Source: an uncultured Myxococcales bacterium
Lineage (GTDB): Bacteria; Desulfobacterota; Binatia; UBA1149; CAITLU01
NCBI GenBank assembly: GCA_964475235.1
Contig: CAYYVZ010000001.1
Location: 1 to 47,029, forward strand
DNA length: 47,029 nucleotides
Direction: 5' to 3'
Below the pieces are notes generated by a model, which had not been told where the DNA came from, did no database searches, and was given only the letters and a program-made list of their open reading frames with translations. Within the stretch, counting starts at the first letter, position 1. Each line of letters starts with the position of its first letter. The position numbers and the translations under genes were made by a program. Positions 10,872-41,838 of this stretch are shown here, piece after piece.

Positions 10872-10888
10872 TATCCCGTCGTCGCTGA

Positions 10889-14486: not shown

Positions 14487-14496
14487 CTCCCATCCC

Positions 14497-19085: not shown

Positions 19086-19142
19086 CCGGGAGGCCGTCGC
19101 GATGCGGCACGCAGTGGGCCCGCCGGTCCGGCTCCGCGCGAG

Positions 19143-19844: not shown

Positions 19845-19866
19845 GCGGACACCTTTTTCCGGAGAG

Positions 19867-21473: not shown

Positions 21474-21592
21474 TGCCTCGAATCGTAAGGGTTGAAAACG
21501 CCCGATTGGACATTGCCACTCGGTAGCTTACGCAGGACGAATCACGAGGCCAGCAACACGGCCGGAATGCCGCACGCAGGCGAGGGCGCGCG

Positions 21593-23970: not shown

Positions 23971-24032
23971 CGAGCGTCCCCACCACGCGGCGCATTGATC
24001 GCCCGCGCCCCCCGTGGCAACTTCCGCCGATC

Positions 24033-25176: not shown

Positions 25177-25246
25177 CGACTTCCATCGATCCGCTGCGTC
25201 GCCGCGAGTTCCGACGACCGCGGCGCCGTGCTAGCTCCGAACTTCC

Positions 25247-26389: not shown

Positions 26390-26440
26390 CGACCGAATCT
26401 TTCGCCGGCCAGCCACATTCCTTCTTCCGTGGCGCGGGCG

Positions 26441-29830: not shown

Positions 29831-29970
29831 GGAGATCCTCCGTCGCCGTGGGGCGTCCCGGCCGGGGCCCGCACCCCGCACGTCGTCGTTGCCACTTCGG
29901 TGGCAATGCCCCCCGGCACCGGAGGCCATCGTCGTCGCTGGACGACCAAAGAACAAGAGGCTTTCTCCGG

Positions 29971-31188
29971 CTACGGGCCCCCGTCCTTCTTCTGCCGGAT
30001 CGCATCCGTGGCGATCCGCTCGACGCGAGCGGCGAGGCGATCCCACGTGTGCAGCCTCGCTCTCTGCCGCGCGCGACGCGCAAGTTTGGCGCCGAGTGTG
30101 GGATCCGTCCGGATCAGCTCGACGTGTTCGGCGAGCCTGCTGGCGCTACCGGGCGGATGGAGCATCGCCGCCTGGCGGTGGGCAAACAGGCGCGGCAGCT
30201 CACCGCTGGAGCTCGCTGCGATCGGAACGCCGGCTGCGGCGTACTCCCAGACCTTCAGCGGCGAGAAGTAGAACGACGGAAGCGCGGGATACGGTGCGAC
30301 TCCGACGTGCATGCGCGCGAGCTGCCCGGCCACGGCCGACGGATCGATCTCGCCGGTGAGCTCGGCGAACGCGCCGAGCTGATGCTCGCTCAGGAAACGT
30401 TCGATCTCCCCACGCAGCGGCCCGTCCCCGACGATCAGCAGGCGATACGACTTCGACGCGCGGTGCAGCTTGCGGAAGGCCCGCAACAGCACGTCGATGC
30501 CGTGCCAGGGCTTGAGGCTGCCGACGAAGCCGACCACGAAAGGGTCGTCCTCCCGCCGCGCCGGGCGCGGCAACGGGGCGATGCGCGAGGTCGCGACGCC
30601 GCACGGTACGAGGCGCACCTTTCGGCGCGATGCTCCGTGAGCACGCGCGTAGTCCGCCAGATGGGCCGCGGTCACCAGCACGCGGTCGCTGCCCGAGAGC
30701 AACGCCGCTTCGATCGCCGCCGCCGCCGGCGCGAGCTCGAGCTCGCGATACTCGCGCTGCTGCTCCACCAGCGGCGCGTTCACCTCGAGAAGATGGGGAA
30801 CGCCGGACCGGCGAGCCCAGCGCAGGCCCGCGATCGACCACAGGGACTGCCGTTCGTAGACGAGGTCCGGCCGCGGCCTCAGCTCCGACAACGCCGTCTC
30901 GAGCGAGAGGTTCCGGAGAAGCGAACGTACCTCCTTCGACTGGCGCGAAGAACCGGCTTCGCCCGCTTTCTGCATTCGCGCCGTCACCTCCGCGAGCGAG
31001 GCGTCGGCCTGCAGGTCGACGATGCGTGCCGGGAACGATCGCGGCGCCGTGCCCGCGTTCGCCGCCAACAGCGTGACGTCGTGGCCGCGCGCCGCGAGCG
31101 CCACGAGCATCTCCCGCACGTGGGTGGAACTGCCGCTGAAGCCGAAGGGGTCGACGCCGCGATCGGCGCAAACGTACGCGATGCGCAT
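29971..31188 (-). CDS. Family 4 glycosyltransferase (GT-B fold)
   Basis: 'MRIAYVCADRGVDPFGFSGSSTHVREMLVALAARGHDV' and the EX7E region 'LKVWEYAAAGVPIAASSSGELPRLF'. It is a paralog of the 34544-35794 gene. An alternative ATG at 31218 would overlap the barrel gene. Confidence 0.8.
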   Translation of the reverse strand: MRIAYVCADRGVDPFGFSGSSTHVREMLVALAARGHDVTLLAANAGTAPRSFPARIVDLQADASLAEVTARMQKAGEAGSSRQSKEVRSLLRNLSLETALSELRPRPDLVYERQSLWSIAGLRWARRSGVPHLLEVNAPLVEQQREYRELELAPAAAAIEAALLSGSDRVLVTAAHLADYARAHGASRRKVRLVPCGVATSRIAPLPRPARREDDPFVVGFVGSLKPWHGIDVLLRAFRKLHRASKSYRLLIVGDGPLRGEIERFLSEHQLGAFAELTGEIDPSAVAGQLARMHVGVAPYPALPSFYFSPLKVWEYAAAGVPIAASSSGELPRLFAHRQAAMLHPPGSASRLAEHVELIRTDPTLGAKLARRARQRARLHTWDRLAARVERIATDAIRQKKDGGP

Positions 31189-31207
31189 TCCCCGCACGGC
31201 CTGCTCT

Positions 31208-32173
31208 TCAGAAGTCATAGGAAAGTCGCAGCGAACCGTCGTTGATGTCGTAGGTACGGTCGGCACGCGTGGAGTCGTTGTCGCGGTAGCGGTAGCGAAG
31301 GCGCAGCATCGTGGAAGGGATCCACGGGACCGGAACGTCGAGTCCCGCTTCGTAGGTATAGGCGTCGTCCTCGCGCCCGAAATTGCTGTTGCCGTCGCCG
31401 CTTTCGTCTTCTTCGTACCCGACGAGGAAGTTGCGCCACAGCTTCTCGAACCGGAAGATCAATCGCACGTCGGCGGGCAGATAGACGTCGAAGCCCGCGA
31501 GCAGCCAGATTTCCTCGCGGTCGAAGTTGGAGCTGATCGCATCGCGCGCCGAAAAGCCGACTCCGCCCCGTGGTGTCAGGTAGGAGGTCAGACGGTAGCG
31601 CAGGCCCGCCTCGACGGCCTCTTCGTAGAAGGATCGCTCCCGAAAGGGCGGGTCGTAGAACTCCGCGTCGAACTCGAGGTTGAGCACCGCCGTCCAGCGC
31701 TTCCTGTCGCCGAACTTCGAACGCAGCTCTGCCACGAGGTTGTGGACGTCGGCGAACGCATCGGCGGTGGCGGCCGGATCGACGCGCAGGTGGTCGGGAG
31801 ACAGCTGATAGCTGACGGTGAGCGACGCGAGGTCCCAGTCGTAGCCGAACGACGGGCCGAACTCGGCGTAGTCGCGGTTGTCGAAGGCGCTGTAAACGCG
31901 CGCTCGCATGAGTCCCCCGATGCGGTGCGGAAGCCAGCCGCGGGGGTGCCGTTGCCACTCGCCTTCGGCTTCGAATGTCGTGTACCAGGCTTCCTCCCGC
32001 CGCGCCTCGTCGGCGCGGACGTTGTCGGTGTAGCCTTCCTCGAGCGATACCGAGCCGTCGAGCCCCGGTTCGACGTCGCGCGCCCACGCGCCCGCCGGCG
32101 AAACGACCAGGGCGGCGGCGAGCGCGAGAGCCGCACGGAACGCTCGAGGAAGCCGGGCGGTGTTTCGCGTCAT
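31208..32173 (-). CDS. Outer-membrane beta-barrel protein, family unknown
   Basis: Signal peptide 'MTRNTARLPRAFRAALALAAALVVSPAGAWA'. Alternating amphipathic strands rich in Y/R/D/G. Terminal 'SLRLSYDF' with a C-terminal Phe typical of BAM substrates. ATGA overlap with the upstream GT stop. Confidence 0.65.
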   Translation of the reverse strand: MTRNTARLPRAFRAALALAAALVVSPAGAWARDVEPGLDGSVSLEEGYTDNVRADEARREEAWYTTFEAEGEWQRHPRGWLPHRIGGLMRARVYSAFDNRDYAEFGPSFGYDWDLASLTVSYQLSPDHLRVDPAATADAFADVHNLVAELRSKFGDRKRWTAVLNLEFDAEFYDPPFRERSFYEEAVEAGLRYRLTSYLTPRGGVGFSARDAISSNFDREEIWLLAGFDVYLPADVRLIFRFEKLWRNFLVGYEEDESGDGNSNFGREDDAYTYEAGLDVPVPWIPSTMLRLRYRYRDNDSTRADRTYDINDGSLRLSYDF

Positions 32174-33378
32174 TGCCGGGCCTCGCTCGCGAGCGAGAGC
32201 TGCTTGCGGACGCGGCGCGCGATTCGCGTGGCTCCCGCAAAATCGATCTCGGGCCGCGCTTGCGGACGCCAGCCGCCCTGTGCGCGCGCGAGCAACTTGC
32301 GGACGGCGGCTTCGAGCGAAGCCGCCGAGACTTCCTCCTGCGGCAGGACGTCGACGAGGCCTAGCCGCGCAAGCGCGTCGGCGCGCATCGTCTGTTCCGC
32401 ACGCGGCTCTGCGCGCGGAACGAGCAGCGCCGGCTTGGCGGCCGAGACGACCTCGCAGACGGTGTTGTACCCCGCCATGCTCACGCTCACGGTCGAGAGT
32501 GCGAGCAGCGCGGGGACGTCGGGGCTGAAGTCGCAGACGAGTACGCGCTCTCCGAGCGGCAGCAGACGGGCACGCAACTCGCGGCGCTCGGCGGCGGGCA
32601 TGTCGGGGCCGAGGAGCACGATCGAATCGATGCCGTCGCGCGCCAGCCCGGCAGCGGCGCCGGCCCACGCGTCCATCAGCGCGTAACCGTCGCCGCCTCC
32701 CCCGCAGCTCACGAGCACGCGCGGCCTTTCGTCGAGCCTCAGCTCGCTGCGCAGCCGGTCCACCTCGGCGTCCGCGCTCGAGCGTACGACGTATCCGCAG
32801 TAGCGCGTGCGGCGTCGCACCGATTCGGGGAAGTCGTAGAGCTCGGGCGGATCGAAGACGGCCTGGCACCCGGCGATCCAGATCTCGTCGTAGAACTCCT
32901 CGAGCACGGCCGCCATCCCCACTTTCTTCCAGTGCTTGACGATGTGATCGGGCTGGTCGAGCACGTCCCGCAGCGTGAGCGCGATGCGCGTCTGCGGCCG
33001 TCGTTCGCGCAGATAACGCAGCGTCGAGAGCAGCTCGCCGCCGACGCCGCGCGGCGCGTTGTCCACGACCAGCAGATGGGGATCGAACGCACGCACGACG
33101 GCGCGAACCAGATTGCGGCGGATGCGCCGCACGCGATCGAAGCTGATGCGAAGATGGCGCGAGCGGTACTCCTCGCGCCCCGACTTCCATACGCCCGGCA
33201 GCTTGACGAAGTCGACGCCCGCCGTTGCCTCGAAGGCGGCCGCCGAATCGAGACCCGTGAGCATCAGCACGGCGACGTCGTCGACGTGACGGGCGAGGTG
33301 GGACGCCAGCGTGAGGCTGCGCCGGAAGTGCCCGAGCCCGAAGGTGTCGTGAGAATAGAAGAGAATGCGCCGCTTCAT
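32170..33378 (-). CDS. GT-B glycosyltransferase (GT1/GT28 MurG-like; 'predicted glycosyl transferase' COG4671-type)
   Basis: 'MKRRILFYSHDTFGLGHFRRSLTLASHL', 'VLVSCGGGGDG', 'SVSMAGYNTVCEVVSAAKPALLVPR'. ATGA overlap at both ends. Confidence 0.7.
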   Translation of the reverse strand: MKRRILFYSHDTFGLGHFRRSLTLASHLARHVDDVAVLMLTGLDSAAAFEATAGVDFVKLPGVWKSGREEYRSRHLRISFDRVRRIRRNLVRAVVRAFDPHLLVVDNAPRGVGGELLSTLRYLRERRPQTRIALTLRDVLDQPDHIVKHWKKVGMAAVLEEFYDEIWIAGCQAVFDPPELYDFPESVRRRTRYCGYVVRSSADAEVDRLRSELRLDERPRVLVSCGGGGDGYALMDAWAGAAAGLARDGIDSIVLLGPDMPAAERRELRARLLPLGERVLVCDFSPDVPALLALSTVSVSMAGYNTVCEVVSAAKPALLVPRAEPRAEQTMRADALARLGLVDVLPQEEVSAASLEAAVRKLLARAQGGWRPQARPEIDFAGATRIARRVRKQLSLASEARQ

Positions 33379-34547
33379 CGAGTGGCCTCCTCGACGAGGG
33401 CGGGCGAAATGCGGCTCCAGCGCAGGTGGAGCCGGTACACGAAGGCGAGCCGCACGAGGCTCGCGCGGCGGTACCAGCGAGTCGCATCGGCGCGCGCCGC
33501 GCGTCCGTAGCCGCTCAGCGCGGCGAGCTCGAGCGCGCGGTGCGCGTCCCGGCGGTCCCACTGCAGGCCGCGCAGGAACAGGTGGGCCAGCAGGTTGCCG
33601 AGGTCGAGCTCACGGTCGCCGGTGCATCCGGTGTCGACGTCGAGCAGCCACAGGTGCGGGCCGTCGAGGAACACCTGCTTGTCGTAGAAGTCGCGGTGGG
33701 CGAATCCGCCCTTCGAAGGGCGCGGCGCCTGCGCTTCGAGCGCGGCGAGTACGGGCAGGGCCGCGCGGGCGAGCGCCGGATCGACGTCCGTCATCCATTG
33801 CGCCCAGGAGCGCAGGAGCTCGAGCTCGTCTGCGCTTCCGTGAACGCGGTCGCGAGGTCCGTCGATCCTCGAGTGGAGCTCGGCGAGCGCCTCGCCGACC
33901 GCGCCGAGCGCGTGCGCATCGGCCGACTCGGCAAGGACTTCGTAAAGGCTGCGCCCGGCGACGGGAGCCACGAGGTCGAGGCCGAGCGACTCGACGCTGC
34001 CGAGCGGCGCCGGGACGCGCATCGCAAGCGGAGACGTCGCCGCCGCGAGATCCTGTTGCAGGCGCCGACGCCGGCCGGGCTCGCGCTCGACGGAGATCTT
34101 GCCGTACGCGAGCGTCTCGCTGCCGCGGCGATAGCGGAACTGGCAACGCATTCCGGCACGATAAGCGGCGACGTCGCAGGCGTCGGCCTTCGCGCCGGCA
34201 ACGGCGCCGTGCGTGATCGACGGGTCGAGGCAGTCGCCGAGCTGGGGCAGGCGGTAGTCGAGCGGAAAGCGAAGCGCGAGAACGTCCTCGGCCACCATCA
34301 CCGCCCCCGATGGGTCTCGACGTGCGATGCGTCGCACGACCTTCTCGCCTTCGGCCGCGCCGACCACGCAGAGGGAGAGCCGCTCGCCGTCGTCCGCATC
34401 TCGATAGCAGACGTTGAGGTATCGGCCGGGTTTGGCCCACACGGACTCGACTTCGAGGCTCGGTGGGCCGGCCCGGCCCGCGAATCCGGCCAGCAGGGCC
34501 GAGGCCGCGCCGCCGTCGAGCAGGCGATGGACGGTTGCCGCGTTCAT
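33375..34547 (-). CDS. Kinase-fold protein (LPS-kinase Kdo/WaaP-like or APH-like phosphotransferase)
   Basis: 390 aa from ATG 34547. Catalytic-loop-like 'FAHRDFYDKQVFL' and metal-binding 'WLLDVDTG'. 'HRD-(C/F)-Y' is reminiscent of WaaP. The 904-aa ORF in the track is an upstream extension. Confidence 0.6.
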   Translation of the reverse strand: MNAATVHRLLDGGAASALLAGFAGRAGPPSLEVESVWAKPGRYLNVCYRDADDGERLSLCVVGAAEGEKVVRRIARRDPSGAVMVAEDVLALRFPLDYRLPQLGDCLDPSITHGAVAGAKADACDVAAYRAGMRCQFRYRRGSETLAYGKISVEREPGRRRRLQQDLAAATSPLAMRVPAPLGSVESLGLDLVAPVAGRSLYEVLAESADAHALGAVGEALAELHSRIDGPRDRVHGSADELELLRSWAQWMTDVDPALARAALPVLAALEAQAPRPSKGGFAHRDFYDKQVFLDGPHLWLLDVDTGCTGDRELDLGNLLAHLFLRGLQWDRRDAHRALELAALSGYGRAARADATRWYRRASLVRLAFVYRLHLRWSRISPALVEEATR

Positions 34548-35794
34548 CGGGCGCGCTTCTTTCCCGCGCCGGCCGTTCGCCGCGCCGTGCGCACGAGCGC
34601 GAGCACGCGTGTCGCGTTGCGTTTCCAGGTGTAGCGACGCACGAGCTCCTGGCGCGCGGTGCGCGACAGCTTCACCGCCAGCTCGGGGCGGCGGCGAAGC
34701 TCCCCGATCGACGCGGCGATCTCGGCGATCGCGCCGGGACGGTGGAGGAGCGCGCTCCGCCGGTGCTTCAGCACCTCGGCGATCTGGCCGACGCGGCTCG
34801 CGACGATCGGAGTCCCGGCCGCCATGTACTCGAAGATCTTGATCGGCGAGAAGTAGTCGGGCGCGTCTTTCGGATAGGGCGCGACGGCGACGTCCATGCG
34901 CGCGAGCAGGGCGGGGACTTCCTCGTGCGCCGCGGCCCCCGTGAACGTGACGGCGTGCGCGAGCCCCCACTCCGCGAAGCGCCGCTGGACGTCCTCGCGC
35001 AGCGGTCCGTCGCCGACGACGAGGAGGCGGTAGCCCTTCCAGCTGCGGTGCAGGCGCCGGAACGCACGGGCGAGGTCGTCGAGCCCGTGCCAGGGCTTGA
35101 GGCTTCCGAGGAATCCGATCGTGAACTCGTCGCGCGCGCGGTCGCGGCCGCGGCGGGACGGCCGAAAGCGCGCCGGATCGGCGGCGTTCGCGACGACGTG
35201 GACCGCGTGCTCGGCGGCGCCGCGCGAGACGGCGTAGGTTCGAAGGGCGGCCGACGGCACGATCACGCGGTCGGCCATGGTCAGCGTGTGGCTCTCGATG
35301 GCGGCTGCGAGCGACTCGTTCTCGAGCGCGCGGTAGCGTTTCTGCTCCGCGGGAAGCGGTGCGTTCATCTCGACGAGGTGGGGCAGCCCGTTGGCGCGCG
35401 CGAAGGCGCCGGCCGAATGACTCCATAGCGAGCAGCGCTCGTAGACAGCGTCGATTCGCCAGGCGGCGTGCAGCTTCTCGAGAGCGCGCGACATGTCGAG
35501 ATTGAAGAGGACGGCCGCCGTCTCGGCCGCCGCAACCGGCGAGACGAGGGTTCCTTCGCCGCGCGACAACGCCTGCCGCGTGCGGCGTGCAGAGCGACTG
35601 CCGCCGACGTCGACGACGTTGGCGGGCGTGCCGCCGCTGCCGTCGGCCACGCGCGCGGCGAGGATCCGCACTTCGGCGCCGCGCTCGCCGAGCGCGCGCA
35701 CCAGCTCGGCGACGTGCAGCGAAGCGCCCTTGTGACCGCCGATCGGCACGCCGCGGTCCGCGCAGACGTAAGCGATGTGGATGCCCCTGGTCAC
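34544..35794 (-). CDS. Family 4 glycosyltransferase
   Basis: GTG start at 35794 (GTGA overlap). 'IHIAYVCADRGVPIGGHKGASLHVAELVRALGERGAEV' and 'IKIFEYMAAGTPIVASRVGQIAEVL'. Confidence 0.8.
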   Translation of the reverse strand: MTRGIHIAYVCADRGVPIGGHKGASLHVAELVRALGERGAEVRILAARVADGSGGTPANVVDVGGSRSARRTRQALSRGEGTLVSPVAAAETAAVLFNLDMSRALEKLHAAWRIDAVYERCSLWSHSAGAFARANGLPHLVEMNAPLPAEQKRYRALENESLAAAIESHTLTMADRVIVPSAALRTYAVSRGAAEHAVHVVANAADPARFRPSRRGRDRARDEFTIGFLGSLKPWHGLDDLARAFRRLHRSWKGYRLLVVGDGPLREDVQRRFAEWGLAHAVTFTGAAAHEEVPALLARMDVAVAPYPKDAPDYFSPIKIFEYMAAGTPIVASRVGQIAEVLKHRRSALLHRPGAIAEIAASIGELRRRPELAVKLSRTARQELVRRYTWKRNATRVLALVRTARRTAGAGKKRAR

Positions 35795-37023
35795 GCCGTC
35801 GCGCGCTCCGTGGGCAGATGGCGCCGGAACATGGCTGCCAGCTCGGCGACGTTGCGACGCAGGTCGAAGTGGGCCTCGGCGCGCCGCCGCCCCGCCCGGC
35901 CCATGGCCTCGGCGCGCGCCGGGTCCGCGAGGATCTGCGCGATGGCACCGGCCAGGCCGCCGATGTCGCCGGGCTCGACGAGCAGCCCGTTTTCACCGTC
36001 GACGACGATCTCGGGAATGCCGGAAAGGCGCGTCGAGACGAGCGGAAGTCCGCAGGCCATTCCTTCGAGCAACGCGGTGGGGAGCGCATCGACGTTGCCG
36101 TCGGAGCCGACGACGCACGGCAGAGCCACCAGCGACGCCTGGCGAAGCCGCTCGGTGACCTGTTCGGTCGATACGGATCCGCAAAGCGTCACGACGTCAC
36201 CGAGGCCCCGCCGGGCAACGAGGTCGCGAAGCGACGACTCGAGGTCGCCGCCGCCGACGATGTCGCAGTGGAACGCGAGGCCGCGGTCGCGCAGCATCGC
36301 GCAGGCCTCGATGAGGACGTCGAAACCCTTCTTCTCGACCAGGCGGCCGATCGAGACGATGCGCGGCAGCTTGCGCGGTACCTCGGCCGGCGGGGGTTGG
36401 TTCGGGGAGAAGCGCTCGAGGTCGACGCCGTTGTAGAGCCGCACGATCCCCGCCGCTTCCGTTTCCTCGCACGCCATGAGCTCGAGCAGGTGGCGCCGGT
36501 TGTAGTCGGTCACCGTGACGACGAAGCGTGCGCGGCGGATCTTCCAGGCGAGCACGTCGCGATCGACGTCGCGGTGATAGATGTCCTTGGCATGGGCCGT
36601 CATGCTGAACCCGATGCCGCCGAGCTGCGCGGCGAGCAACGCGACGTGCCCGGCGCGCGATGCGAAATGGGCGTGCAGGTGTCCGACACCGTGGCGCCCG
36701 GCGAGAGAAGTCAGCGCGAGGCCGAGCCGCACGTACTTGCGCGGGAGGAGCGCGGGACGCTCGGCCTCGGCGATGTCGAGCAGGCGCGCGAGTCGTTCGG
36801 TAGCCTTTCGGACTTCCGCGTCGTCGACGACGGTTTCCTCGACGATCTCGACGGGTGCTGCGAGGTCGCGGAGGATCGCGTGGGTCACCGGAGCCGGGTT
36901 GCGGTGCAGCGAGAACACGACGGGGTGTTCGCCGAGTGCCTCGAGCGCGCGCACCTCGTTGATGACGAACGTCTCGGAAGTGCGTGGGAAGACTTTCGCG
37001 ACGTAAGCGATCCGGTGGCTCAC
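35791..37023 (-). CDS. Family 4 glycosyltransferase
   Basis: GTG at 37023 ('VSHRIAYVAKVFPRTSETFVINEV') overlaps the upstream stop (GTGA). 'IGRLVEKKGFDVLIEA' and 'LLEGMACGLPLVSTRLSGIPEIVVDGENGLLV'. Confidence 0.8.
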   Translation of the reverse strand: MSHRIAYVAKVFPRTSETFVINEVRALEALGEHPVVFSLHRNPAPVTHAILRDLAAPVEIVEETVVDDAEVRKATERLARLLDIAEAERPALLPRKYVRLGLALTSLAGRHGVGHLHAHFASRAGHVALLAAQLGGIGFSMTAHAKDIYHRDVDRDVLAWKIRRARFVVTVTDYNRRHLLELMACEETEAAGIVRLYNGVDLERFSPNQPPPAEVPRKLPRIVSIGRLVEKKGFDVLIEACAMLRDRGLAFHCDIVGGGDLESSLRDLVARRGLGDVVTLCGSVSTEQVTERLRQASLVALPCVVGSDGNVDALPTALLEGMACGLPLVSTRLSGIPEIVVDGENGLLVEPGDIGGLAGAIAQILADPARAEAMGRAGRRRAEAHFDLRRNVAELAAMFRRHLPTERATA

Positions 37024-37487
37024 GGGGTGGCTCCGGGGACAGTTTCCCTCGCCGGCGTGGGTACGGCGAGAGGCGTCGTGGTCTCCGGAGCCGGCGCGTC
37101 CGTGTTCGCGCCGGCCGTCCGCCGAGAGGGATCGGGGACCAGCCGGCACGCATGGTCTTCGCAGACGGCCTTCACGTCGTTGCGGCAGAGGTCGAGCTGG
37201 ATGCACACCGGTCGCGGGCGGCACGCGCTCTTGAGAAACAGCCGAAGCTCGTCGGTGTGCCAGCGGGTGACGGCGCCTTGCGCGCCGCCTTCGGAGCACG
37301 GGCAGCAGCCGATGCGATCGACGATCTTGCAGTCGTCGGCCGTCGCGCACCAGAACGAATCGAAAGGCAGGACGACGGGCTTGGTCGCCGCGGTGCCGTC
37401 GTGGAACGAGACGATTCCGAGGCCGAGCATCCCCGCGGTCAACAGCAGGGTCCCGACGGTGACGACCATGCTGCCACGCGAGGTCAT
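37020..37487 (-). CDS. Hypothetical membrane-anchored Cys-rich protein (155 aa, 10 Cys, Pro/Thr/Ala-rich tail)
   Basis: The ATG at 37487 overlaps the ABC exporter stop (ATGA), and its own stop overlaps the GT4 start (GTGA). TM 'MVVTVGTLLLTAGMLGLGIVSF', then 'WCATADDCKIVDRIGCCPCSEGG...ACRPRPVCIQLDLCRNDVKAVCEDHACRL', then the tail 'TDAPAPETTTPLAVPTPARETVPGATP'. It is hidden in the track inside a 757-aa off-frame ORF. Confidence 0.6.
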   Translation of the reverse strand: MTSRGSMVVTVGTLLLTAGMLGLGIVSFHDGTAATKPVVLPFDSFWCATADDCKIVDRIGCCPCSEGGAQGAVTRWHTDELRLFLKSACRPRPVCIQLDLCRNDVKAVCEDHACRLVPDPSRRTAGANTDAPAPETTTPLAVPTPARETVPGATP

Positions 37488-39403
37488 GCCTTGGCTCCCG
37501 ACGTCGCGGCCGCAAGAACAGGCTGTGCCGCTGCGCCGCTTGCGGGTTCCGCCACCACCTGGAGCGCGGGCGCAGCCGGCGTTCCTTCCTGGATGCGCCA
37601 CGTGTCGCGATACCAGCCGGGCTGCTGGACGAGGTCGTCGTGGCGTCCGTACTGCACGATGCGGCCCTGGTCGAGGACGATGACGCGGCGTGCCTTGCGC
37701 ACTTCGCTCAGGCGGTGGGCGACGCGCAGCGTGGTCTTTCCTGCACTGATCCGGGCCAGCGTGCGGTTGAGGTGCGCGGCGGAAGTCGCGTCGAGGTGAG
37801 CGGTCGGTTCGTCGAGGATCAGGATGGGCGGGTCGTTCACCATCGCGCGTGCGATCGCGATCTTCTGGCGCTGGCCGCCCGACAGCGTGTCGCCGCGTTC
37901 GCCGACTTTGGTCTCGTAGCCGTCTTCGAGCGCGACGATGAAGTCGTGGGCGTCCGCGAGCCTGGCCGCCGCGACGATTTCCTCGTCCGTGGCGTCGGGC
38001 CGGGCGTAGGCGATGTTCTCGCGGATCGTGGTGGCAAACAGGATCGGCTCCTGCAGGACCACGCCGATCTGCTGGCGCAGCGACTCGAGCGTGAACGACG
38101 TGATCTTCTCTCCGTCGATCGTGATCGTCCCCTCGGCGGGATCGAACAGGCGCGGGAGCATCGCGCAGAGCGTGGACTTGCCGGCGCCGTTCGATCCGAC
38201 GATGGCCAGGGTCTGGCCCGGCTTCACCGTGACGCTCACGCCGTCGAGCACGCGCACGCCGGAATGGTAGCTGAAGCCGACGTCGTGGAAGCTCACCCGT
38301 CCCGCGAAGCGCGGCGCCGGCACGGCGTTCTTCGAGACGCGCACGCATTCGCTCACCTCCAGCAGCGAGAAGACGCGTTCGGCACAGACGCGGGCCTTCG
38401 ACGCGCGGCTGGCGACCGTCGAGATGCGGCGCAGCGGCTTGTACATCGCGGCCAGGTAGGCGGTGAAGACGAGCAGATCGCCGGGGGTGAGGACGCCGGA
38501 CATCACGCGCTCGGTTCCGAACCACAGGACGAGGCCTGTCCCGATGGCGATCATGATCTCGGCCGTGCGCTCGAGCGACGCCTCGAGCTTCACGGTGCGC
38601 AGGCCCTGGCGCAGAGATCGCTTGTTGGCTTCGCCGAAGCGCGCCGCCTCGTCGGCTTCGCGCCCGTGCACCTGCACCACGGCGATGGCACCGAGGGTCT
38701 CGCCGACGTGCGCTGCCATGCGACCTTCGCGGCTTCGCTGCTTGCGCACCGCCGTGCGGAGCTCGGCCGAAAGGCGCAGCGTCGAGAGCGCGAGCAACGG
38801 CAGCACCGACAGGCTGATGATCGTCAGTTGCCAGTCCACCCACGCCATGACGACGACCATCGCGACGATGGTCAGTGCCGAGGTCGCGAAGATCACGAGC
38901 GCCTCGACCATCATCTCTCGCATCATCGTGGTATCGGACGTGGTGCGGAGCACGAGGTCGCCGATCCTCTGGCGGCGGTGGAACGTGAGCGCGAGCCGCT
39001 GCAGATGGAGGAAGAGGCGGCGGCGCAACAGGAAGGATACCTCGTGCCCGGCGGACGCGATGAGGTAGCGCTGAAGGTAGCTGAACAACCCCCACAGAAG
39101 ACCGATCGCGAGCAGCAGCACGCACGCGATGCCCGCGATGCCCGAGGCGCCGTAGCCCTTGAGCATCGAGTACGGGAAGGCCCAGCGGATGCGGTCTTCG
39201 GATCCGAGGGCGTAGTCGAAGACCATCTTGATCGGCCACGGGCGCGCGACGACCATCATGACGGTCCCGACGCTGCACGCGAGGGCCAGCCACAGATCCC
39301 GCTGAACGGCATGGAGGAACGGCGCCATGTCGCCGAAGAGGCGACGAAGCGACTGCCAGCGCAGCGAGCGCAGCAGCGGGTTGAGCGCGACTTCCACCTT
39401 CAT
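37484..39403 (-). CDS. ABC exporter, fused transmembrane and ATPase domains (type I exporter, MsbA-like architecture)
   Basis: Six-TM N-terminal half. Walker A 'GSNGAGKSTL', signature 'LSGGQRQKIAIARA', Walker B 'ILILDEPTAHLD'. No C39 peptidase domain. Confidence 0.85.
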   Translation of the reverse strand: MKVEVALNPLLRSLRWQSLRRLFGDMAPFLHAVQRDLWLALACSVGTVMMVVARPWPIKMVFDYALGSEDRIRWAFPYSMLKGYGASGIAGIACVLLLAIGLLWGLFSYLQRYLIASAGHEVSFLLRRRLFLHLQRLALTFHRRQRIGDLVLRTTSDTTMMREMMVEALVIFATSALTIVAMVVVMAWVDWQLTIISLSVLPLLALSTLRLSAELRTAVRKQRSREGRMAAHVGETLGAIAVVQVHGREADEAARFGEANKRSLRQGLRTVKLEASLERTAEIMIAIGTGLVLWFGTERVMSGVLTPGDLLVFTAYLAAMYKPLRRISTVASRASKARVCAERVFSLLEVSECVRVSKNAVPAPRFAGRVSFHDVGFSYHSGVRVLDGVSVTVKPGQTLAIVGSNGAGKSTLCAMLPRLFDPAEGTITIDGEKITSFTLESLRQQIGVVLQEPILFATTIRENIAYARPDATDEEIVAAARLADAHDFIVALEDGYETKVGERGDTLSGGQRQKIAIARAMVNDPPILILDEPTAHLDATSAAHLNRTLARISAGKTTLRVAHRLSEVRKARRVIVLDQGRIVQYGRHDDLVQQPGWYRDTWRIQEGTPAAPALQVVAEPASGAAAQPVLAAATSGAKA

Positions 39404-39506: not shown

Positions 39507-40022
39507 TCAGTCGCCGTTCTGCTTGCGCCGCGAGAAGAGCTTGAGCGTCGCGATGGTATTGGGCGTCGCGCTGGATTTGTCGACCAGGATGCCGGTGCAA
39601 AGGATGCGCGTGCTCGTTCCGAGGATTCGTGCGGCTCCGTTCTTGACGTTTCCGAGGCCGGTGATGGCCGCGTCCTCGTGCAGGCCCACGCTGGTGCCGG
39701 TCGAGATGGTGACGGTGTGCCCCACCGGTAGCGGCAGCGTACCGTTGCCGGAGCCGACGGCGACGTCGTTGAGCGCGTCGCCGCCTTCGGGCGCGAACAC
39801 TTCGAACGCGACGGTCGCGTCGACCGTGTCGAGCGAGGTGCACATGATCGCCGTCTCGATGCCGTTGTTCTTGATCACGCCCGGAACGTGGAACAGCACG
39901 CGCGTCGATTCGGAGGCCGAGATCGACGGGACGGGGCTGTCACCCGGACCGAGCGCGGATGCGCTGGTGACAAACGTGAGGACCACGGCCGCAACCGTGC
40001 TCGGAATCGCTGCTCTTTTCAT
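39507..40022 (-). CDS. Hypothetical secreted protein (171 aa)
   Basis: ATG at 40022 preceded by GGAGAGAGA. Signal peptide 'MKRAAIPSTVAAVVLTFVTSASA'. Beta-rich and G/T/V-rich mature part. It starts 26 nt downstream of the delta-60 gene. Confidence 0.6.
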   Translation of the reverse strand: MKRAAIPSTVAAVVLTFVTSASALGPGDSPVPSISASESTRVLFHVPGVIKNNGIETAIMCTSLDTVDATVAFEVFAPEGGDALNDVAVGSGNGTLPLPVGHTVTISTGTSVGLHEDAAITGLGNVKNGAARILGTSTRILCTGILVDKSSATPNTIATLKLFSRRKQNGD

Positions 40023-40048: not shown

Positions 40049-41755
40049 TCAGCCCGGACAGTTCAGCTCTACTGCCTGGCCGACCGCCTTGCGCAGCACG
40101 CGCAGCGCGTCGCCCGCCTGGATCGCTCCGCTCGAATCGACGTCGCAAAGCGAGTCGGGACACGCGACCGCCTGGCCGACGGCGTTTCGCAGCACGCGCA
40201 GCGCATCGCTCGCCTGGACGCTTCCGTTCAGGTCGGCGTCGCCGCAGCTCGCTTCGGCCTGGCAGGTCGCGTCGCAGCCGTCGCCCGGCGCGGTGCCGCC
40301 GTCGTCGCACTCTTCGACTCCGCTGCGCACGAATCCGTCTCCGCACTTGGAATTGAGGCAGGTGGACGGACACGCATCGGTATCGATCGCGTTTCCGTCG
40401 TCGCACTCTTCCGGACTCTCGACGTTGCCGTTGCCGCACGCGGCGATCTGGCCGGCGAGGTAGCGAACGACCATCTGGTAACTGGCCTGGCCGTCGTCGG
40501 CGAGACCGCCGGCGAGGATTCGTCCGTTGTCCTGGAGCAGAAGCGAAGAGAGCTCCTCGTCGAACGTGCTCGCAGCGCTCGTCACGGCAATGCCGCCGTT
40601 TCCGAAGCTCGAGTCGGGCTGGCCGCCGGTCGTGTAGCGCACGAGCGTGAAGGCGCCGGCCCGCCCGGCATTCGAGACGCCGCCGGCGACGAGCTTTCCG
40701 TCGGCCTGGCGTGCGAGCGCGCGCGCAGCGTCGATCTCCCCGGGCGAGACGTCGGTTCGTGCGATGCCGCCGCTTCCGAAGCTCGCGTCCGGCTGTCCCG
40801 TGCTCGTGTAGCGCACCACCACGAAGTCGCCGTCGGCCTCGCCGGCAACGACGACCTTGCCGTCCGGCTGAACCAGGAGTGCGAACGCCGCGTCGTCGCG
40901 CGCCGAAACCGACGTCGTCACCTTGCCGCCGGAGCCGAAGGATCCGTCGGGCGTGCCCGCGGAGGTCAGCCGGGCGAGCGCGATGTCCGAAGAGCTCTTC
41001 TCCGACGCGCCCGCGAGCACGACAGCCCCGTCGAGGGGCTGGACCGCCACGGCACGGGCGACGTCGTTTCCGCCGAAATCGACGGTGGCGATTCCGTCGC
41101 CGGAGAAGCCGCTGTCGGGCTGGCCGCCGGTGGTGTAGCGCACCACCGCGAAGTCGCTGTCGCTTCCGTCGTCGGCGCGACCGGCGGCGAGGATTTTGCT
41201 GTCCGGCTGCTGCGCGAGCGCGAACGCTTCGTCGTCACCCTGGATGGTGGTGTTCGCGGTTCCGCCCGAGCCGAAGCCGGCGTCGATCGCCCCGGCCGTC
41301 GTCAGGCGAGTGACCGCGAAGCGACTTCCCGCGCGGCCTGCCAGCACGAGCTTGTTGTCGGCGCTCTGTCGGAGCATCGCATGGACGACCTGGAGCGTGT
41401 CGGCGCCGACCTGCACCGACGCGACACCGGCATTGCCGAAGGAAGAGTCTACCGTCCCGCCCGTCGTCAGCCTGGTGAGACGGAGCGTGGCGCGGTCGGC
41501 GGCTGCGTCGTCGATGGTGGCGACGAGGAGCTTGCCGTCCGCCTGAAGCGCCATCGCGACGACTCCTTCGTCCCCGATCGCCGACAGTGCGACACCCTGC
41601 GTGGCATAGGTACCGTCGGGGTCGCCGGGGGCGGCAAGGGCGCGAGCAACGCCGACGACGAGCGTGCAGACCACGGCGGCGACGCGCACCGATCGCGCAC
41701 GCGCGCTTCGGCCGGGCGAAGCCGGGCGACTTCGGGGGGAGTGTTGCCGGGTCAT
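40049..41755 (-). CDS. Secreted delta-60-repeat protein with two Myxococcus-type Cys-rich repeats and a C-terminal double dockerin-like module
   Basis: ATG at 41755 preceded by GGAGGA. About 7 repeats of '(R/Y)-x-T-x-(G/A)G-x-(P/V/I)D-x-(S/G)FG-x-(G/A)G...A-x-A(L/V)-x-(Q/R)-x-DGK(L/V)(L/V)(A/V)(A/G)G', the delta-60 signature. 'CGNGNVESPEECDDGN...C' and 'CGDGFVRSGVEECDDGG...DGCDATC'. Tail 'CGDADLNGSVQASDALRVLRNAVGQ...CDVDSSGAIQAGDALRVLRKAVGQAVELNCPG'. Confidence 0.8.
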   Translation of the reverse strand: MTRQHSPRSRPASPGRSARARSVRVAAVVCTLVVGVARALAAPGDPDGTYATQGVALSAIGDEGVVAMALQADGKLLVATIDDAAADRATLRLTRLTTGGTVDSSFGNAGVASVQVGADTLQVVHAMLRQSADNKLVLAGRAGSRFAVTRLTTAGAIDAGFGSGGTANTTIQGDDEAFALAQQPDSKILAAGRADDGSDSDFAVVRYTTGGQPDSGFSGDGIATVDFGGNDVARAVAVQPLDGAVVLAGASEKSSSDIALARLTSAGTPDGSFGSGGKVTTSVSARDDAAFALLVQPDGKVVVAGEADGDFVVVRYTSTGQPDASFGSGGIARTDVSPGEIDAARALARQADGKLVAGGVSNAGRAGAFTLVRYTTGGQPDSSFGNGGIAVTSAASTFDEELSSLLLQDNGRILAGGLADDGQASYQMVVRYLAGQIAACGNGNVESPEECDDGNAIDTDACPSTCLNSKCGDGFVRSGVEECDDGGTAPGDGCDATCQAEASCGDADLNGSVQASDALRVLRNAVGQAVACPDSLCDVDSSGAIQAGDALRVLRKAVGQAVELNCPG

Positions 41756-41822: not shown

Positions 41823-41838
41823 AGCAATCGCCGTGCCG
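41823..41838 (-). promoter_or_regulatory. Sigma-54 (-24/-12) promoter candidate for the delta-60 gene and the downstream block
   Basis: The minus strand reads CGGCACGGCGATTGCT, compared with the consensus TGGCACG-N4-TTGCW. Only the first T differs, and the GG-N10-GC spacing is exact. It lies about 70-85 nt upstream of the ATG at 41755 and 170 nt downstream of a GAFTGA-containing activator gene. Confidence 0.7.

What the first reader, a model, noticed from the sequence alone, without database searches (positions are those of the whole stretch)
29971..39403. Eight-gene operon with six consecutive 4-nt overlaps: ABC exporter, 10-Cys orphan, GT4, GT4, kinase, GT-B, outer-membrane barrel, GT4
Six consecutive gene junctions are 4-nt start/stop overlaps: 37487/37484 ATGA, 37023/37020 GTGA, 35794/35791 GTGA, 34547/34544 ATGA, 33378/33375 ATGA and 32173/32170 ATGA. 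The last junction is 19 nt or shorter. Overlaps of this kind imply obligate co-translation and fixed stoichiometry. The content is an MsbA-like flippase/exporter, four glycosyltransferases (three GT4 and one MurG-like), a WaaP/APH-like kinase with an HRDFYDKQ catalytic loop, a dedicated outer-membrane beta-barrel, and an unknown Cys-rich membrane protein. That set looks like a self-contained pathway for making, phosphorylating and exporting a glycolipid or short lipid-linked glycan. It has no Wzx/Wzy/Wza, no Wzm/Wzt pair, no WaaA/WaaC/WaaF and no initiating phosphoglycosyl transferase. It therefore fits neither a classical LPS-core locus nor a capsule/EPS locus.
Basis: partly seen in the sequence, partly recalled or inferred. 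Interest (0 to 1): 0.7.

Follow-up and report, generated by a model that had tools for sequence, protein, structure and literature searches.

The report
Conserved uncharacterised glycan assembly-and-export operon
This is a real, tightly packed operon for making a sugar chain, phosphorylating it and exporting it through both membranes; it is one lineage's version of an unstudied gene module found in many bacterial phyla and on some Shiga-toxin E. coli plasmids, where it could be tested.

Summary
Eight minus-strand genes span 39403..29971. Six consecutive 4-nt start/stop overlaps sit exactly where stated, and the last gap is 19 nt. The order ABC exporter, 10-Cys protein, GT4, GT4, APH-fold kinase, GT28-like GT, outer-membrane barrel, GT4 recurs in at least eight independent metagenomic loci, mostly with the same overlaps.

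The unit is larger than reported. A sigma-54-type promoter (41838..41824) precedes a secreted delta-60/dockerin protein and a 171-aa secreted protein (g0). A histidine kinase and a sigma-54 response regulator lie just upstream.

The operon is a lineage-specific elaboration of a wider module: GT28-like, GT4, GT4, ABCB-type exporter, one to three APH kinases, outer-membrane channel. That module occurs in 35 loci from Acidobacteriota, Zixibacteria, Planctomycetota, Gammaproteobacteria, Gemmatimonadota, Ignavibacteria and Actinomycetota-labelled bins. It is also on plasmids in 18 of 5426 complete E. coli genomes.

The kinase is APH-like, not WaaP-like. The barrel is a 14-strand OmpG/CymA-like porin. 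Relatives use AlgE-like porins and often carry UDP-sugar dehydrogenase or lyase genes.

Best reading: sigma-54-controlled synthesis, phosphorylation and secretion of an anionic glycan. No paper found describes the module, and the product is unknown.

The parts
43356..45221 (-). Sensor histidine kinase (Cache-like, HAMP, HisKA, HATPase_c). Its stop overlaps the response-regulator start by 11 nt.
   Evidence: Pfam; start and stop positions. The same HK-RR pair lies upstream of the cluster in L001.
42005..43366 (-). NtrC-family sigma-54-dependent response regulator (Response_reg, Sigma54_activat, HTH_8).
   Evidence: Pfam; NCBIfam (AtoC/NtrC/PEP-CTERM-box regulator models, all below cut-off). Sigma-54 activators recur next to the module in 10 distant loci and in the Ca. 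Manganitrophus record.
41824..41838 (-). Sigma-54 promoter-like element cGGCACG-N4-TTGCT, 69 nt upstream of the ATG at 41755.
   Evidence: It is the only 1-mismatch match to TGGCAC-N5-TTGC in the 47-kb window; sequence. The same element sits 54 nt upstream of the orthologous gene in L001. High-scoring -24/-12 motifs occur upstream of the module in 7 of 35 related loci, against about 0.5 expected.
40049..41755 (-). Secreted delta-60-repeat (DUF5122) beta-propeller protein with Cys-rich DUF4215 repeats. By eye it also has a dockerin-like C-terminal repeat pair.
   Evidence: Pfam; NCBIfam; sequence. A faint Dockerin_1 hit is on record for the L001 orthologue. It is conserved directly upstream of g0 in L001, L067 and L068, and downstream of the cluster in L002.
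39507..40022 (-). g0: a 171-aa secreted protein with a signal peptide, two conserved Cys and a conserved C-terminus RRKQNGD. It starts 26 nt after the previous stop. No family or solved-structure relative was found.
   Evidence: Conserved in L001, L002, L067 and L068, with arrays of 3-6 paralogues in Binatia loci. No hit in Pfam, NCBIfam or PDB.
37484..39403 (-). g1: ABCB-type half-transporter exporter (ABC_membrane + ABC_tran), 639 aa.
   Evidence: Pfam. NCBIfam: best matches are the MsbA-related models at 425 bits, below every equivalog cut-off. PDB: ABCB1, Sav1866, TM288, MsbA.
37020..37487 (-). g2: a 155-aa protein with an N-terminal membrane anchor, an ~85-aa domain with 10 invariant Cys (CCxC core) and a Pro/Thr/Ala-rich tail. 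A 4-nt overlap couples it to the ABC gene.
   Evidence: It has 36 representatives at E<=1e-3 among 1.84 billion proteins. The domain is also fused to FG-GAP, Kazal and Ig-like extracellular modules. No PDB relative.
35791..37023 (-). g3: GT4 glycosyltransferase of WcaL/EpsE type.
   Evidence: Pfam. NCBIfam: EPS_EpsE 217 bits and WcaL 150 bits, full length, both below cut-off.
34544..35794 (-). g4: GT4 glycosyltransferase (Glyco_trans_4_4 + Glycos_transf_1).
33375..34547 (-). g5: APH-fold kinase. Catalytic loop HRDFYDKQ, metal-binding LLDVDT, ATP-binding Lys in YGK, and a ~130-aa N-terminal cap.
   Evidence: Relatives carry PF01636. Invariant residues. Profile against PDB. AF2 pLDDT 94.6. Foldseek neighbours.
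32170..33378 (-). g6: GT-B glycosyltransferase with a GT28/GT1-type C-terminal domain. It is among the best-conserved proteins of the cluster (81% identity to L001, as is the ABC exporter).
31208..32173 (-). g7: outer-membrane 14-strand beta-barrel with a signal peptide and a C-terminal Phe.
   Evidence: Weak Pfam and TIGR03016 hits. AF2 pLDDT 86.3 with 14 strands. Foldseek: CymA, and OmpG with TM 0.62/0.70.
29971..31188 (-). g8: third GT4 glycosyltransferase, a paralogue of g4. The likely start is ATG 31188; alternatives are 31218 and 31266.
   Evidence: An 18-nt gap at the same junction in L067 supports the 31188 start.

Best explanation
The operon encodes an envelope-spanning line that builds, phosphorylates and secretes a glycan.

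Shown:
- Four soluble GT-B glycosyltransferases: one GT28/GT1-like and three GT4.
- One cytoplasmic APH-fold kinase with intact catalytic residues.
- One ABCB-type exporter, translationally coupled to a membrane-anchored protein with 10 conserved Cys.
- One porin-type 14-strand outer-membrane barrel.
- All are packed behind a sigma-54-type promoter and next to a histidine kinase and a sigma-54 response regulator.
- The whole arrangement is conserved in relatives.

Inferred:
- The GT28-like enzyme starts the chain on an acceptor that needs no dedicated phosphoglycosyl transferase. This could be a common lipid or a small phosphorylated molecule.
- The GT4 enzymes extend the chain.
- The kinase adds phosphate in the cytoplasm, either as a charge or export tag or as a chain-end mark.
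- The ABC exporter moves the product across the inner membrane, with g2 as its periplasmic partner.
- The barrel lets the anionic oligo- or polysaccharide out.
- The co-transcribed secreted proteins (g0 and the delta-60/dockerin protein) probably act with the product at the cell surface.

The window carries a lineage-specific, sulfatase-less version of a widespread uncharacterised module: GT28-like, GT4, GT4, ABC exporter, APH kinase(s), outer-membrane channel.
For: - Anatomy and overlaps. Domains.
- The same gene order occurs in L001, L002, L004, L066, L067 and L068 and in Binatia loci.
- The core module is present in 35 of 59 genome-derived loci from many phyla. The complete module is on E. 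coli plasmids.
- The slot after the kinases holds either a DUF5666 + Alginate_exp porin (26 loci) or a g7-type barrel (8 loci). An outer-membrane channel is therefore part of the module.
- g7 is modelled as a 14-strand OmpG/CymA-like sugar-channel fold.
- UDP-sugar dehydrogenase sits next to the module in Zixibacteria and E. coli. An alginate lyase lies inside it in Ca. Manganitrophus.
- The kinase fold is closest to small-molecule and sugar kinases, including maltokinase.
- Sigma-54 control: promoter element and adjacent activators.
- No phosphoglycosyl transferase, Wzx/Wzy, PCP or OPX gene recurs in the loci.
Against: - No product, substrate or transcript has been observed; every functional step is inferred from families and synteny.
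- The window itself has no UDP-sugar dehydrogenase, lyase or AlgE-like porin, so the anionic-polymer evidence comes from distant relatives at 30-45% identity.
- GT28/GT1-type enzymes and ABCB exporters (MsbA, PglK) usually handle lipophilic or lipid-linked substrates. This fits a glycolipid as well as it fits a secreted glycan.
- The kinase substrate cannot be read from the fold (TM about 0.5 to every neighbour).
- The roles of g0, g2 and the delta-60 protein are guesses.
- The core module also occurs in bins labelled Propionibacteriaceae, Acidimicrobiales and Chloroflexaceae, without a barrel gene detected in the stretch held. The outer-membrane step is therefore not universal, and bin labels can be wrong.
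Confidence: 0.5

Rival explanations
1. The pathway makes a phosphorylated glycolipid or short lipid-linked glycan. The GT28-like enzyme starts it on a membrane lipid, the ABC protein flips it as MsbA or PglK would, and it ends up anchored in the outer membrane as an LPS-independent surface glycolipid.
For: - No phosphoglycosyl transferase occurs in any locus.
- The GT28-like C-terminal domain is closest to MurG, then to GT1 enzymes that glycosylate lipophilic acceptors.
- The exporter's best family models are MsbA-related.
- The WcaL/EpsE-type GT4 resembles enzymes that work on lipid-linked intermediates.
- The core module also occurs in bins labelled as monoderm lineages, where no outer-membrane channel would be needed.
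Against: - The dedicated outer-membrane protein is an open porin-type barrel like OmpG/CymA, and AlgE-like in relatives. It is not a lipid insertase.
- A lyase and UDP-sugar dehydrogenases in relatives point to a soluble uronate-containing polymer.
- No periplasmic lipid bridge or carrier is recognisable.
- The exporter is below every MsbA and PglK cut-off.
Confidence: 0.25
2. A protein glycosylation system. The glycan is assembled and exported in order to decorate the co-encoded secreted proteins: g0 and its paralogue arrays, the delta-60/dockerin protein, and the Pro/Thr-rich tail of g2.
For: - g0 and the delta-60 protein are conserved next to the operon in the window, L001, L002, L067 and L068. 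g0 occurs as 3-6 paralogues flanking the cluster in Binatia.
- g0 has a conserved C-terminal RRKQNGD motif that could be a recognition tag.
Against: - No oligosaccharyltransferase or ligase (PglB, PglL or Wzy_C type) is present in the operon or recurs in relatives.
- The wider module in other phyla and in E. coli lacks g0, g2 and delta-60 proteins but keeps the GTs, exporter, kinases and porin.
Confidence: 0.1
3. Tailoring, export and self-protection genes for a glycosylated, phosphorylated small-molecule natural product.
For: - The kinase's nearest solved relatives are antibiotic and small-molecule kinases: corramycin phosphotransferase, macrolide phosphotransferases, APHs and PsiK.
- The GT28-like C-terminus also matches macrolide glycosyltransferases.
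- ABCB exporters often pump drugs.
Against: - No scaffold-forming genes (PKS, NRPS, RiPP precursor or terpene synthase) are in the window cluster or recur in about 60 loci.
- Three or four glycosyltransferases plus a dedicated sugar-type porin, a sugar dehydrogenase and a lyase fit a glycan better.
Confidence: 0.05
4. A divergent LPS inner-core (Waa) locus with its MsbA flippase.
For: GT4 enzymes, a kinase and an MsbA-like exporter together superficially recall waaG-waaP-msbA neighbourhoods (established knowledge of Pseudomonas and E. coli core loci).
Against: - No WaaA, WaaC, WaaF or lpx gene is anywhere in the 47-kb window.
- Waa-type NCBIfam models score 20-37 bits against cut-offs of 385-618.
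- The kinase family is PF01636, not the Kdo/WaaP family, and WaaP is absent from the Foldseek top 50.
- The module is plasmid-borne in E. coli, which already has a chromosomal waa locus, and it also occurs in Actinomycetota-labelled bins.
Confidence: 0.03

Closest known systems
ABC-transporter-dependent O-antigen and capsule pathways (Wzm/Wzt with the WbdD terminator kinase in E. coli O9a; KpsMT group 2 capsules)
   Same: - The glycan is completed in the cytoplasm by GT-B enzymes and exported by an ABC transporter.
- In O9a, a kinase-fold enzyme phosphorylates the chain end and so couples termination to export (established knowledge). This suggests a role for the APH kinases here.
   Different: - The exporter here is a fused ABCB-type half-transporter, not an ABC-2 Wzm/Wzt or KpsMT pair.
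- There is no initiating phosphoglycosyl transferase, no KpsS/C, and no PCP or OPX (Wza/KpsD/E).
- The outer-membrane step is a porin-type barrel.
- The kinases are APH-family, stand-alone, and often present in two or three copies.
Alginate-type (synthase-dependent) secretion through AlgE
   Same: Distant members of the module end in an Alginate_exp-family barrel, and some carry a lyase or a UDP-sugar dehydrogenase.
   Different: - No GT2 synthase, c-di-GMP receptor or TPR scaffold is present.
- The inner-membrane step is an ABC exporter.
- The window's own barrel has 14 strands and shows no detectable homology to the AlgE-like proteins (hhalign probability 0.8%).
Cyclic glucan / osmoregulated periplasmic glucan export (NdvA/ChvA exporter, OpgB-type substituent transferase)
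   Same: - An ABCB-type exporter moves a soluble glycan.
- Relatives of this operon add a periplasmic alkaline-phosphatase-superfamily (sulfatase-family) lipoprotein.
   Different: - The exporter scores 353 bits against a cut-off of 733 for the glucan exporter model.
- There is no NdvB or OpgH synthase.
- The system has kinases and an outer-membrane channel.
- The sulfatase-family gene is absent from the window.
LPS core assembly (WaaG/WaaP plus MsbA)
   Same: It combines GT4 enzymes, a kinase that would phosphorylate a sugar, and an MsbA-like exporter.
   Different: - Different kinase family (PF01636, not Kdo/WaaP).
- No Kdo or heptose transferases.
- Below all Waa and MsbA cut-offs.
- Found on E. 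coli plasmids and in non-LPS lineages.
OmpG / CymA monomeric 14-strand sugar channels
   Same: The predicted fold and strand number of g7 match: 14 strands, TM 0.62/0.70 to OmpG, and the top E-values go to CymA.
   Different: - About 10-14% sequence identity and no family-level sequence match.
- g7 is encoded inside a biosynthetic operon, so it would serve export rather than uptake. The direction of transport is inferred.

Membership tests
LPS core (Waa) locus | Kdo or heptosyl transferases (WaaA/WaaC/WaaF) or lpx genes in or next to the cluster | tested here: not met
   Pfam and NCBIfam scans of the operon and of the long ORFs across most of the 47-kb window found none.
LPS core (Waa) locus | Kinase of the Kdo/WaaP family | tested here: not met
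   Relatives of g5 carry PF01636 (APH). The profile against PDB gives corramycin phosphotransferase and APHs. The Foldseek top 50 contains no WaaP.
MsbA lipid A flippase (TIGR02203 equivalog) | Score above the curated equivalog cut-off | tested here: not met
   424.6 bits against a cut-off of 602. Among PDB half-transporters, Sav1866 (330 bits) scores above MsbA (290 bits).
PglK-type lipid-linked oligosaccharide flippase / NdvA glucan exporter | Score above the curated cut-off | tested here: not met
   PglK 167 bits against 1000; glucan exporter 353 bits against 733.
Wzx/Wzy-dependent EPS or capsule locus | Wzx flippase, Wzy polymerase, PCP, OPX (Wza) and an initiating phosphoglycosyl transferase | tested here: not met
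   None among the eight proteins or the upstream genes. No such family recurs in about 60 related loci.
ABC-2 (Wzm/Wzt, KpsMT) dependent glycan export | Separate ABC-2 permease and ATPase | tested here: not met
   g1 is a fused ABC_membrane + ABC_tran protein.
Synthase-dependent secretion (alginate, cellulose, Pel, PNAG) | Membrane GT2 synthase with a co-polymerase, plus an AlgE/BcsC/PgaA-type porin | tested here: not met
   No GT2 synthase is in the operon. g7 shows no homology to the Alginate_exp proteins of relatives. AlgE-like porins occur only in distant versions.
APH / protein-kinase-like phosphotransferases (PF01636) | Bilobal kinase fold with an ATP-binding Lys, a catalytic Asp in an HxD loop and a metal-binding Asp | tested here: met
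   K150, HRD286 and D303/D305 are conserved in 22 sequences. AF2 pLDDT 94.6. The fold matches APH-family kinases at probability 1.00. g5 itself falls below Pfam reporting, but 18 of its 23 relatives carry PF01636.
GT4 glycosyltransferases | Glycos_transf_1 C-terminal domain plus Glyco_transf_4-type N-terminal domain, above Pfam cut-offs | tested here: met
   g3, g4 and g8.
MurG (GT28) equivalog | Full-length match above the cut-off | tested here: not met
   Only the C-terminal domain matches: PF04101 at 41 bits, and TIGR01133 at 32 bits against a cut-off of 250. The profile against PDB aligns residues 216-394 only.
14-strand monomeric porins (OmpG/CymA) | 14 antiparallel strands forming a single barrel | tested here: met
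   The AF2 model has 14 strands. Best TM is 0.62/0.70 to OmpG 2x9k, and the top E-values go to CymA. This is structural resemblance only; no sequence-family membership was shown.
Sigma-54 regulon member | A -24 GG / -12 GC promoter upstream, plus a cognate bacterial enhancer-binding protein | tested here: inconclusive
   The motif and the adjacent activator are present and recur in relatives. No transcript or binding data exist.

The most novel reading that the evidence does not exclude
The module is a previously unrecognised general route for bacterial glycan secretion. It would be distinct from the Wzx/Wzy, ABC-2 and synthase pathways. In this route the chain is built without a dedicated undecaprenyl-phosphate initiating enzyme. 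APH-type kinases install phosphate as the export or activation signal. An ABCB-type exporter crosses the inner membrane, and a porin-type barrel (AlgE-like or OmpG-like) crosses the outer membrane. In the window's lineage the exported phospho-glycan would then be handled by the Cys-rich anchor protein and bound or displayed by the g0 and delta-60/dockerin proteins.
Probability: 0.2. Interest if true: 0.85.

Novelty: new variant of a known kind. Interest (0 to 1): 0.62.

Why it matters
Bacterial surface and secreted glycans are currently sorted into a few export schemes: Wzx/Wzy, ABC-2 transporter, synthase, and the Lpt route for LPS. This module does not fit any of them. It combines cytoplasmic GT-B enzymes and APH-fold kinases with an ABCB exporter and a porin-type outer-membrane channel, often under sigma-54 control. 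It is conserved from Myxococcota-like and Binatia genomes to Acidobacteriota, Zixibacteria, Planctomycetota and Gammaproteobacteria. No paper found in the library describes it.

A complete version sits on plasmids of culturable Shiga-toxin-producing E. coli. Its product and the role of glycan phosphorylation in export can therefore be tested directly by genetics and chemistry. The result could also bear on the surface biology of food-borne STEC strains.

Tried and rejected
- **Hairpin before the ABC gene.** The 103-nt gap between g0 and the ABC gene folds into a long hairpin (-54.6 kcal/mol). Shuffled sequences fold as well (z = 0.13), and the gap is only about 30 nt in L001. I dropped it as a regulatory element.
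- **Sigma-70 promoters and terminators.** No sigma-70-type promoter was found in 28.5-42.5 kb. Terminator-like sites were fewer than in shuffles.
- **g7 as a shortened AlgE-like porin.** Profile-profile comparison with the DUF5666/Alginate_exp proteins gave probability 0.8%. Rejected.
- **'Sulfatase' hits in distant loci.** jackhmmer hits downstream of the kinases in distant loci turned out to match only the DUF5666-like insert, not the catalytic domain. Only 9 loci have a true sulfatase-family gene.
- **g0 and g2.** There was no Pfam, NCBIfam or PDB-profile match, even at permissive thresholds. I thought of a cohesin-like g0 pairing with the dockerin-like repeats of the delta-60 protein; nothing supports it.
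- **Literature.** Searches for COG4671, DUF5666, 'delta-60 repeat', a combined term set, the E. coli kinase accession and strain RM9088 found nothing on this cluster.
- **GC3-based gene calling.** It was unreliable in this 68% GC window. Gene limits rest on homology and database calls instead.

Full report
**1. Observation**

The window is 68% GC. On the minus strand, eight ORFs translate without internal stops:

| Gene | Product | Coordinates | Length |
|---|---|---|---|
| g1 | ABC exporter | 39403..37484 | 639 aa |
| g2 | Cys-rich protein | 37487..37020 | 155 aa |
| g3 | GT4 | 37023..35791 | 410 aa |
| g4 | GT4 | 35794..34544 | 416 aa |
| g5 | kinase | 34547..33375 | 390 aa |
| g6 | GT28-like | 33378..32170 | 402 aa |
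| g7 | barrel | 32173..31208 | 321 aa |
| g8 | GT4 | ends 29971 | |

The six junctions are ATGA, GTGA, GTGA, ATGA, ATGA, ATGA at the stated coordinates. For g8 the start that matches its paralogue g4 (MRIAYVCADRG) is ATG 31188.

The overlaps are conserved in orthologous loci, using the databases' own gene calls:
- L002 has 4-nt overlaps at the same six junctions.
- L067 and L068 have five of seven.
- L001 and L004 have four of eight.
- In the flanks of L001 and L002, only about 2 of 16 same-strand neighbour pairs overlap by 4 nt.

The run of overlaps is therefore real, non-random and maintained by selection. It shows translational coupling. It does not show fixed stoichiometry.

**2. The eight proteins**

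- **g1 (ABC exporter).** It has ABC_membrane plus ABC_tran. Its best NCBIfam models are MsbA-related at 425 bits, below every curated cut-off (MsbA 602, glucan exporter 733, PglK 1000). Against PDB it is a generic ABCB-type exporter: Sav1866 330 bits, TM288 308, MsbA about 290.
- **g3, g4, g8 (GT4).** All three are clear GT4 enzymes. g3 is a full-length WcaL/EpsE-type match below cut-off.
- **g6 (GT28-like).** It matches only the GT28 C-terminal domain. A 26-sequence profile aligns residues 216-394 to MurG (E 7.8e-9), then to GT1 enzymes such as YjiC and OleD. g6 and the ABC exporter are the best-conserved proteins of the cluster (each 81% identical to L001; kinase 53%).
- **g5 (kinase).** It hits no Pfam model itself. 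Of its 23 relatives, 18 carry PF01636. K150, H284-R-D286 and D303/D305 are invariant or nearly so. The profile's best PDB matches are corramycin phosphotransferase (2.4e-7) and APH-family proteins. The AF2 model is very confident (pLDDT 94.6, pTM 0.92). Foldseek returns PsiK, corramycin phosphotransferase, maltokinase, methylthioribose kinase, macrolide phosphotransferases, type II homoserine kinase and APHs, at TM about 0.45-0.55. No WaaP appears in the top 50. It is an APH-fold small-molecule or sugar kinase of a distinct subfamily, not a WaaP.
- **g7 (barrel).** Its family hits are weak (OMP_b-brl, BBP2_2, and the C-terminus of TIGR03016). With 18 homologues, AF2 gives pLDDT 86.3 and a signal peptide followed by 14 strands. 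Foldseek puts CymA first by E-value (6e-8). OmpG fits best geometrically (2x9k, TM 0.62/0.70). AlgE appears only at rank 26.
- **g2 (Cys-rich protein).** It has an N-terminal membrane anchor preceded by basic residues, an ~85-aa domain with ten invariant Cys (C..C..CCxC..C..C..C..C..C), and a Pro/Thr/Ala-rich tail.
  - It is rare but not an orphan: 36 representatives at E<=1e-3 among 1.84 billion proteins.
  - Some larger proteins carrying the domain also carry FG-GAP, Kazal or Ig-like modules. This fits an extracytoplasmic, disulfide-bonded domain.
  - No PDB relative was found.

**3. The unit is larger than reported**

- **g0.** A 171-aa protein is encoded 103 nt upstream of g1, at 40022..39507. 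It has a signal peptide, two conserved Cys and a conserved C-terminus RRKQNGD. No family or structure match was found.
- **Delta-60 protein.** A 568-aa secreted delta-60-repeat (DUF5122) propeller protein ends 26 nt upstream of g0 (41755..40049). It has DUF4215 Cys repeats and a dockerin-like repeat pair.
- **Promoter.** The sequence cGGCACG-GCGA-TTGCT lies 69 nt upstream of the delta-60 ATG. It is the only 1-mismatch match to the sigma-54 -24/-12 consensus in the whole window.
- **Regulators.** Immediately upstream are an NtrC-family sigma-54 response regulator (43366..42005) and a sensor histidine kinase (45221..43356).

L001, an uncultured Myxococcales MAG, has the same layout: HK, RR, delta-60, g0, operon. 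It has the same promoter element 54 nt before the delta-60 gene. L067 and L068 also have delta-60 and g0 directly upstream.

**4. Conservation in the close clade**

The order ABC, g2, GT4, GT4, APH, GT28-like, barrel, GT4 recurs in L001, L002, L004, L066, L067 and L068. Binatia loci carry it with rearrangements.

L001, L002, L004 and L066 carry an extra gene of about 630 aa between the barrel and the last GT4. It is a lipoprotein-like member of the sulfatase / alkaline-phosphatase superfamily, of arylsulfatase/PehA type, with a DUF5666-like insert. The window lacks this gene, as do L067 and L068. The sulfatase-less form is therefore a recurrent natural variant, not an assembly artefact.

In Binatia, g0 is amplified to 3-6 paralogues around the cluster, and g2 can be duplicated.

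**5. The wider module**

A scan of one genome per species with the kinase motif returned 59 loci. Mapping the window proteins onto them showed a recurring block: GT28-like, GT4, GT4, ABC exporter, then one to three APH-fold kinases. All four component types are present in 35 of the 59 loci. Many of the others are cut by contig ends.

Lineages include Acidobacteriota (Vicinamibacterales, Thermoanaerobaculia), Zixibacteria, Planctomycetota/Phycisphaerae, Arenicellales, Methylococcaceae, Methylothermaceae, Thioalkalivibrio, Gemmatimonadota and Ignavibacteria. Bins labelled Acidimicrobiales and Propionibacteriaceae also carry it.

Other features of these loci:
- **Outer-membrane channel.** After the kinases, 26 loci encode a barrel with an N-terminal DUF5666 domain and a Pfam Alginate_exp domain. 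Eight loci instead have a g7-type barrel in that slot.
- **Regulators and sugar genes.** Sigma-54 activators flank the module in 10 loci, and UDP-glucose/GDP-mannose dehydrogenase genes in 6.
- **Promoter motifs.** High-scoring -24/-12 motifs lie upstream of the first gene in 7 of 35 loci. The per-window null rate is 1.45%, so about 0.5 would be expected.
- **What is absent.** No phosphoglycosyl transferase, Wzx, Wzy, PCP or OPX family recurs.

**6. A culturable host**

tblastn of g6 against plasmids found the complete module on E. coli IncF plasmids. One example is p1RM9088, NZ_CP042296.1, 32389-42567. Its annotated genes in order are: 'glycosyl transferase family 28', two 'glycosyltransferase family 4', 'ABC transporter ATP-binding protein', 'aminoglycoside phosphotransferase family protein', 'phosphotransferase', 'alginate export family protein', 'nucleotide sugar dehydrogenase'.

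Identities to the window proteins are 29-38%, in the same order as in the distant phyla. The 10-kb block is present at >=99% identity in 18 of 5426 complete E. coli genomes. It is always on plasmids, and most strains come from cattle, food or bird sources.

The one paper found on strain RM9088 does not mention these genes.

Two other records are informative:
- A Ca. Manganitrophus record carries the module with an alginate-lyase-family gene inside it and two sigma-54 regulators next to it.
- Rhizobia (S. meliloti pSymB, Shinella) have only the GT28-like/GT4/GT triad. It sits with an importer-type ABC system, a lyase (in S. meliloti) and sugar dehydrogenases, and there is no kinase.

**7. Interpretation**

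Shown: the enzymes are soluble GT-B transferases and a competent APH-fold kinase. The exporter is ABCB-type. The outer-membrane component is a porin-type barrel. The set is co-directional, overlapping, conserved, and associated with sigma-54 elements.

Inferred: cytoplasmic assembly of a defined glycan, cytoplasmic phosphorylation, ABC-driven export, and release through the barrel.

I favour a secreted anionic oligo- or polysaccharide for four reasons:
- The outer-membrane slot is always filled by an open channel type, either OmpG/CymA-like or AlgE-like.
- Relatives carry uronic-acid-forming dehydrogenases, and one carries a lyase.
- The kinases would add negative charge.
- Nothing resembling a lipid insertase or periplasmic lipid carrier is present.

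By analogy with WbdD in E. coli O9a (established knowledge), phosphorylation may mark the finished chain for export. This is untested.

GT28/GT1-type initiators and ABCB exporters typically handle lipophilic substrates, no priming transferase exists in the loci, and the core occurs in bins labelled as monoderms.

The other rivals are less likely. Protein glycosylation of g0 and the delta-60 protein is at 0.1. A natural-product reading is at 0.05. A Waa-type LPS core locus is at 0.03 and is essentially excluded by the membership tests.

**8. Novelty and verdict**

All the parts belong to known families. The combination does not match any of the described glycan export schemes, and no paper found in the library describes it.

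I classify it as a new variant of a known kind, namely ABC-exporter-dependent glycan assembly. There is a 0.2 chance that it represents a distinct general secretion route. Interest is 0.62. The function is unproven, but the module is widespread, coherent and now testable in E. coli.

Noticed in passing
window 16594-26389: A second sugar-modification neighbourhood lies 3.6-13 kb beyond the operon's 3' end, mostly on the opposite strand. It holds a GT2 glycosyltransferase (16594-18030 +), two SAM methyltransferases (19143-20294 -, 20790-21527 -), a DegT/DnrJ aminotransferase (21527-22696 +) and an Acyl_transf_3 acyltransferase (25235-26389 +). Peptide-chain release factor (PCRF/RF-1 domains, 24070-25176) interrupts it. 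These genes could supply modified sugars, but no link to the operon was shown.
   Followed up: no
window 31188-31208; L001 13330-15225, L002 13480-15399, L004 7990-9876, L066 3906-5870: Relatives carry a ~630-aa sulfatase / alkaline-phosphatase-superfamily lipoprotein with a DUF5666-like insert between the barrel and the last GT4. The window, L067 and L068 lack it cleanly, leaving only an 18-69 nt gap.
   Followed up: yes
L007 2154-4132 and 13822-15558; L008 13246-14970; L009; L017 269-1405: In Binatia loci the small secreted protein g0 is expanded into arrays of 3-6 paralogues, some as two-domain fusions. Only some copies keep the C-terminal K/R-K-Q-N/Q-G-D motif.
   Followed up: partly
E. 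coli plasmid NZ_CP042296.1 32389-42567 (L070 9998-20176): The complete distant version of the module sits on IncF plasmids of E. coli isolates (many of them Shiga-toxin producers), next to F4(K88)-like fimbrial genes and an S6 (SPATE) peptidase. It is in 18 of 5426 complete genomes, at >=99% identity, always on plasmids.
   Followed up: partly
L069 (S. meliloti pSymB) 11977-15629; L072 (Shinella) 9977-13765: Rhizobial megaplasmids carry a GT28-like/GT4/GT triad homologous to g6 and g3. It sits next to an importer-type ABC system and nucleotide-sugar dehydrogenases (plus a polysaccharide lyase in S. meliloti), with no APH kinase. It may be a related but different pathway.
   Followed up: no
L067 12268-12816: In L067 the last GT4 is followed, with a 4-nt overlap, by a gene whose product looks by eye like a caffeoyl-CoA-type O-methyltransferase. 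This gene is not present in the window.
   Followed up: no
window 28787-29831 (-): A further minus-strand ORF starts about 140 nt after the g8 stop. It has a weak match to an acidic double-disulfide repeat (33 bits, cut-off 41). It is unclear whether it belongs to the transcript.
   Followed up: no
window 5025-7428 (-): An HlyD-family membrane-fusion protein and an ABC ATPase form an unrelated efflux-type pair. The rest of the left half of the window is housekeeping: PgpA, CinA, RecA, RecX, AlaS, PhoH, Lnt.
   Followed up: no
window 26390-28690 (+): A 766-aa NHL-repeat beta-propeller protein converges on the operon's 3' end. Together with the delta-60 propeller, this makes two large secreted propeller proteins flanking the cluster.
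   Followed up: no
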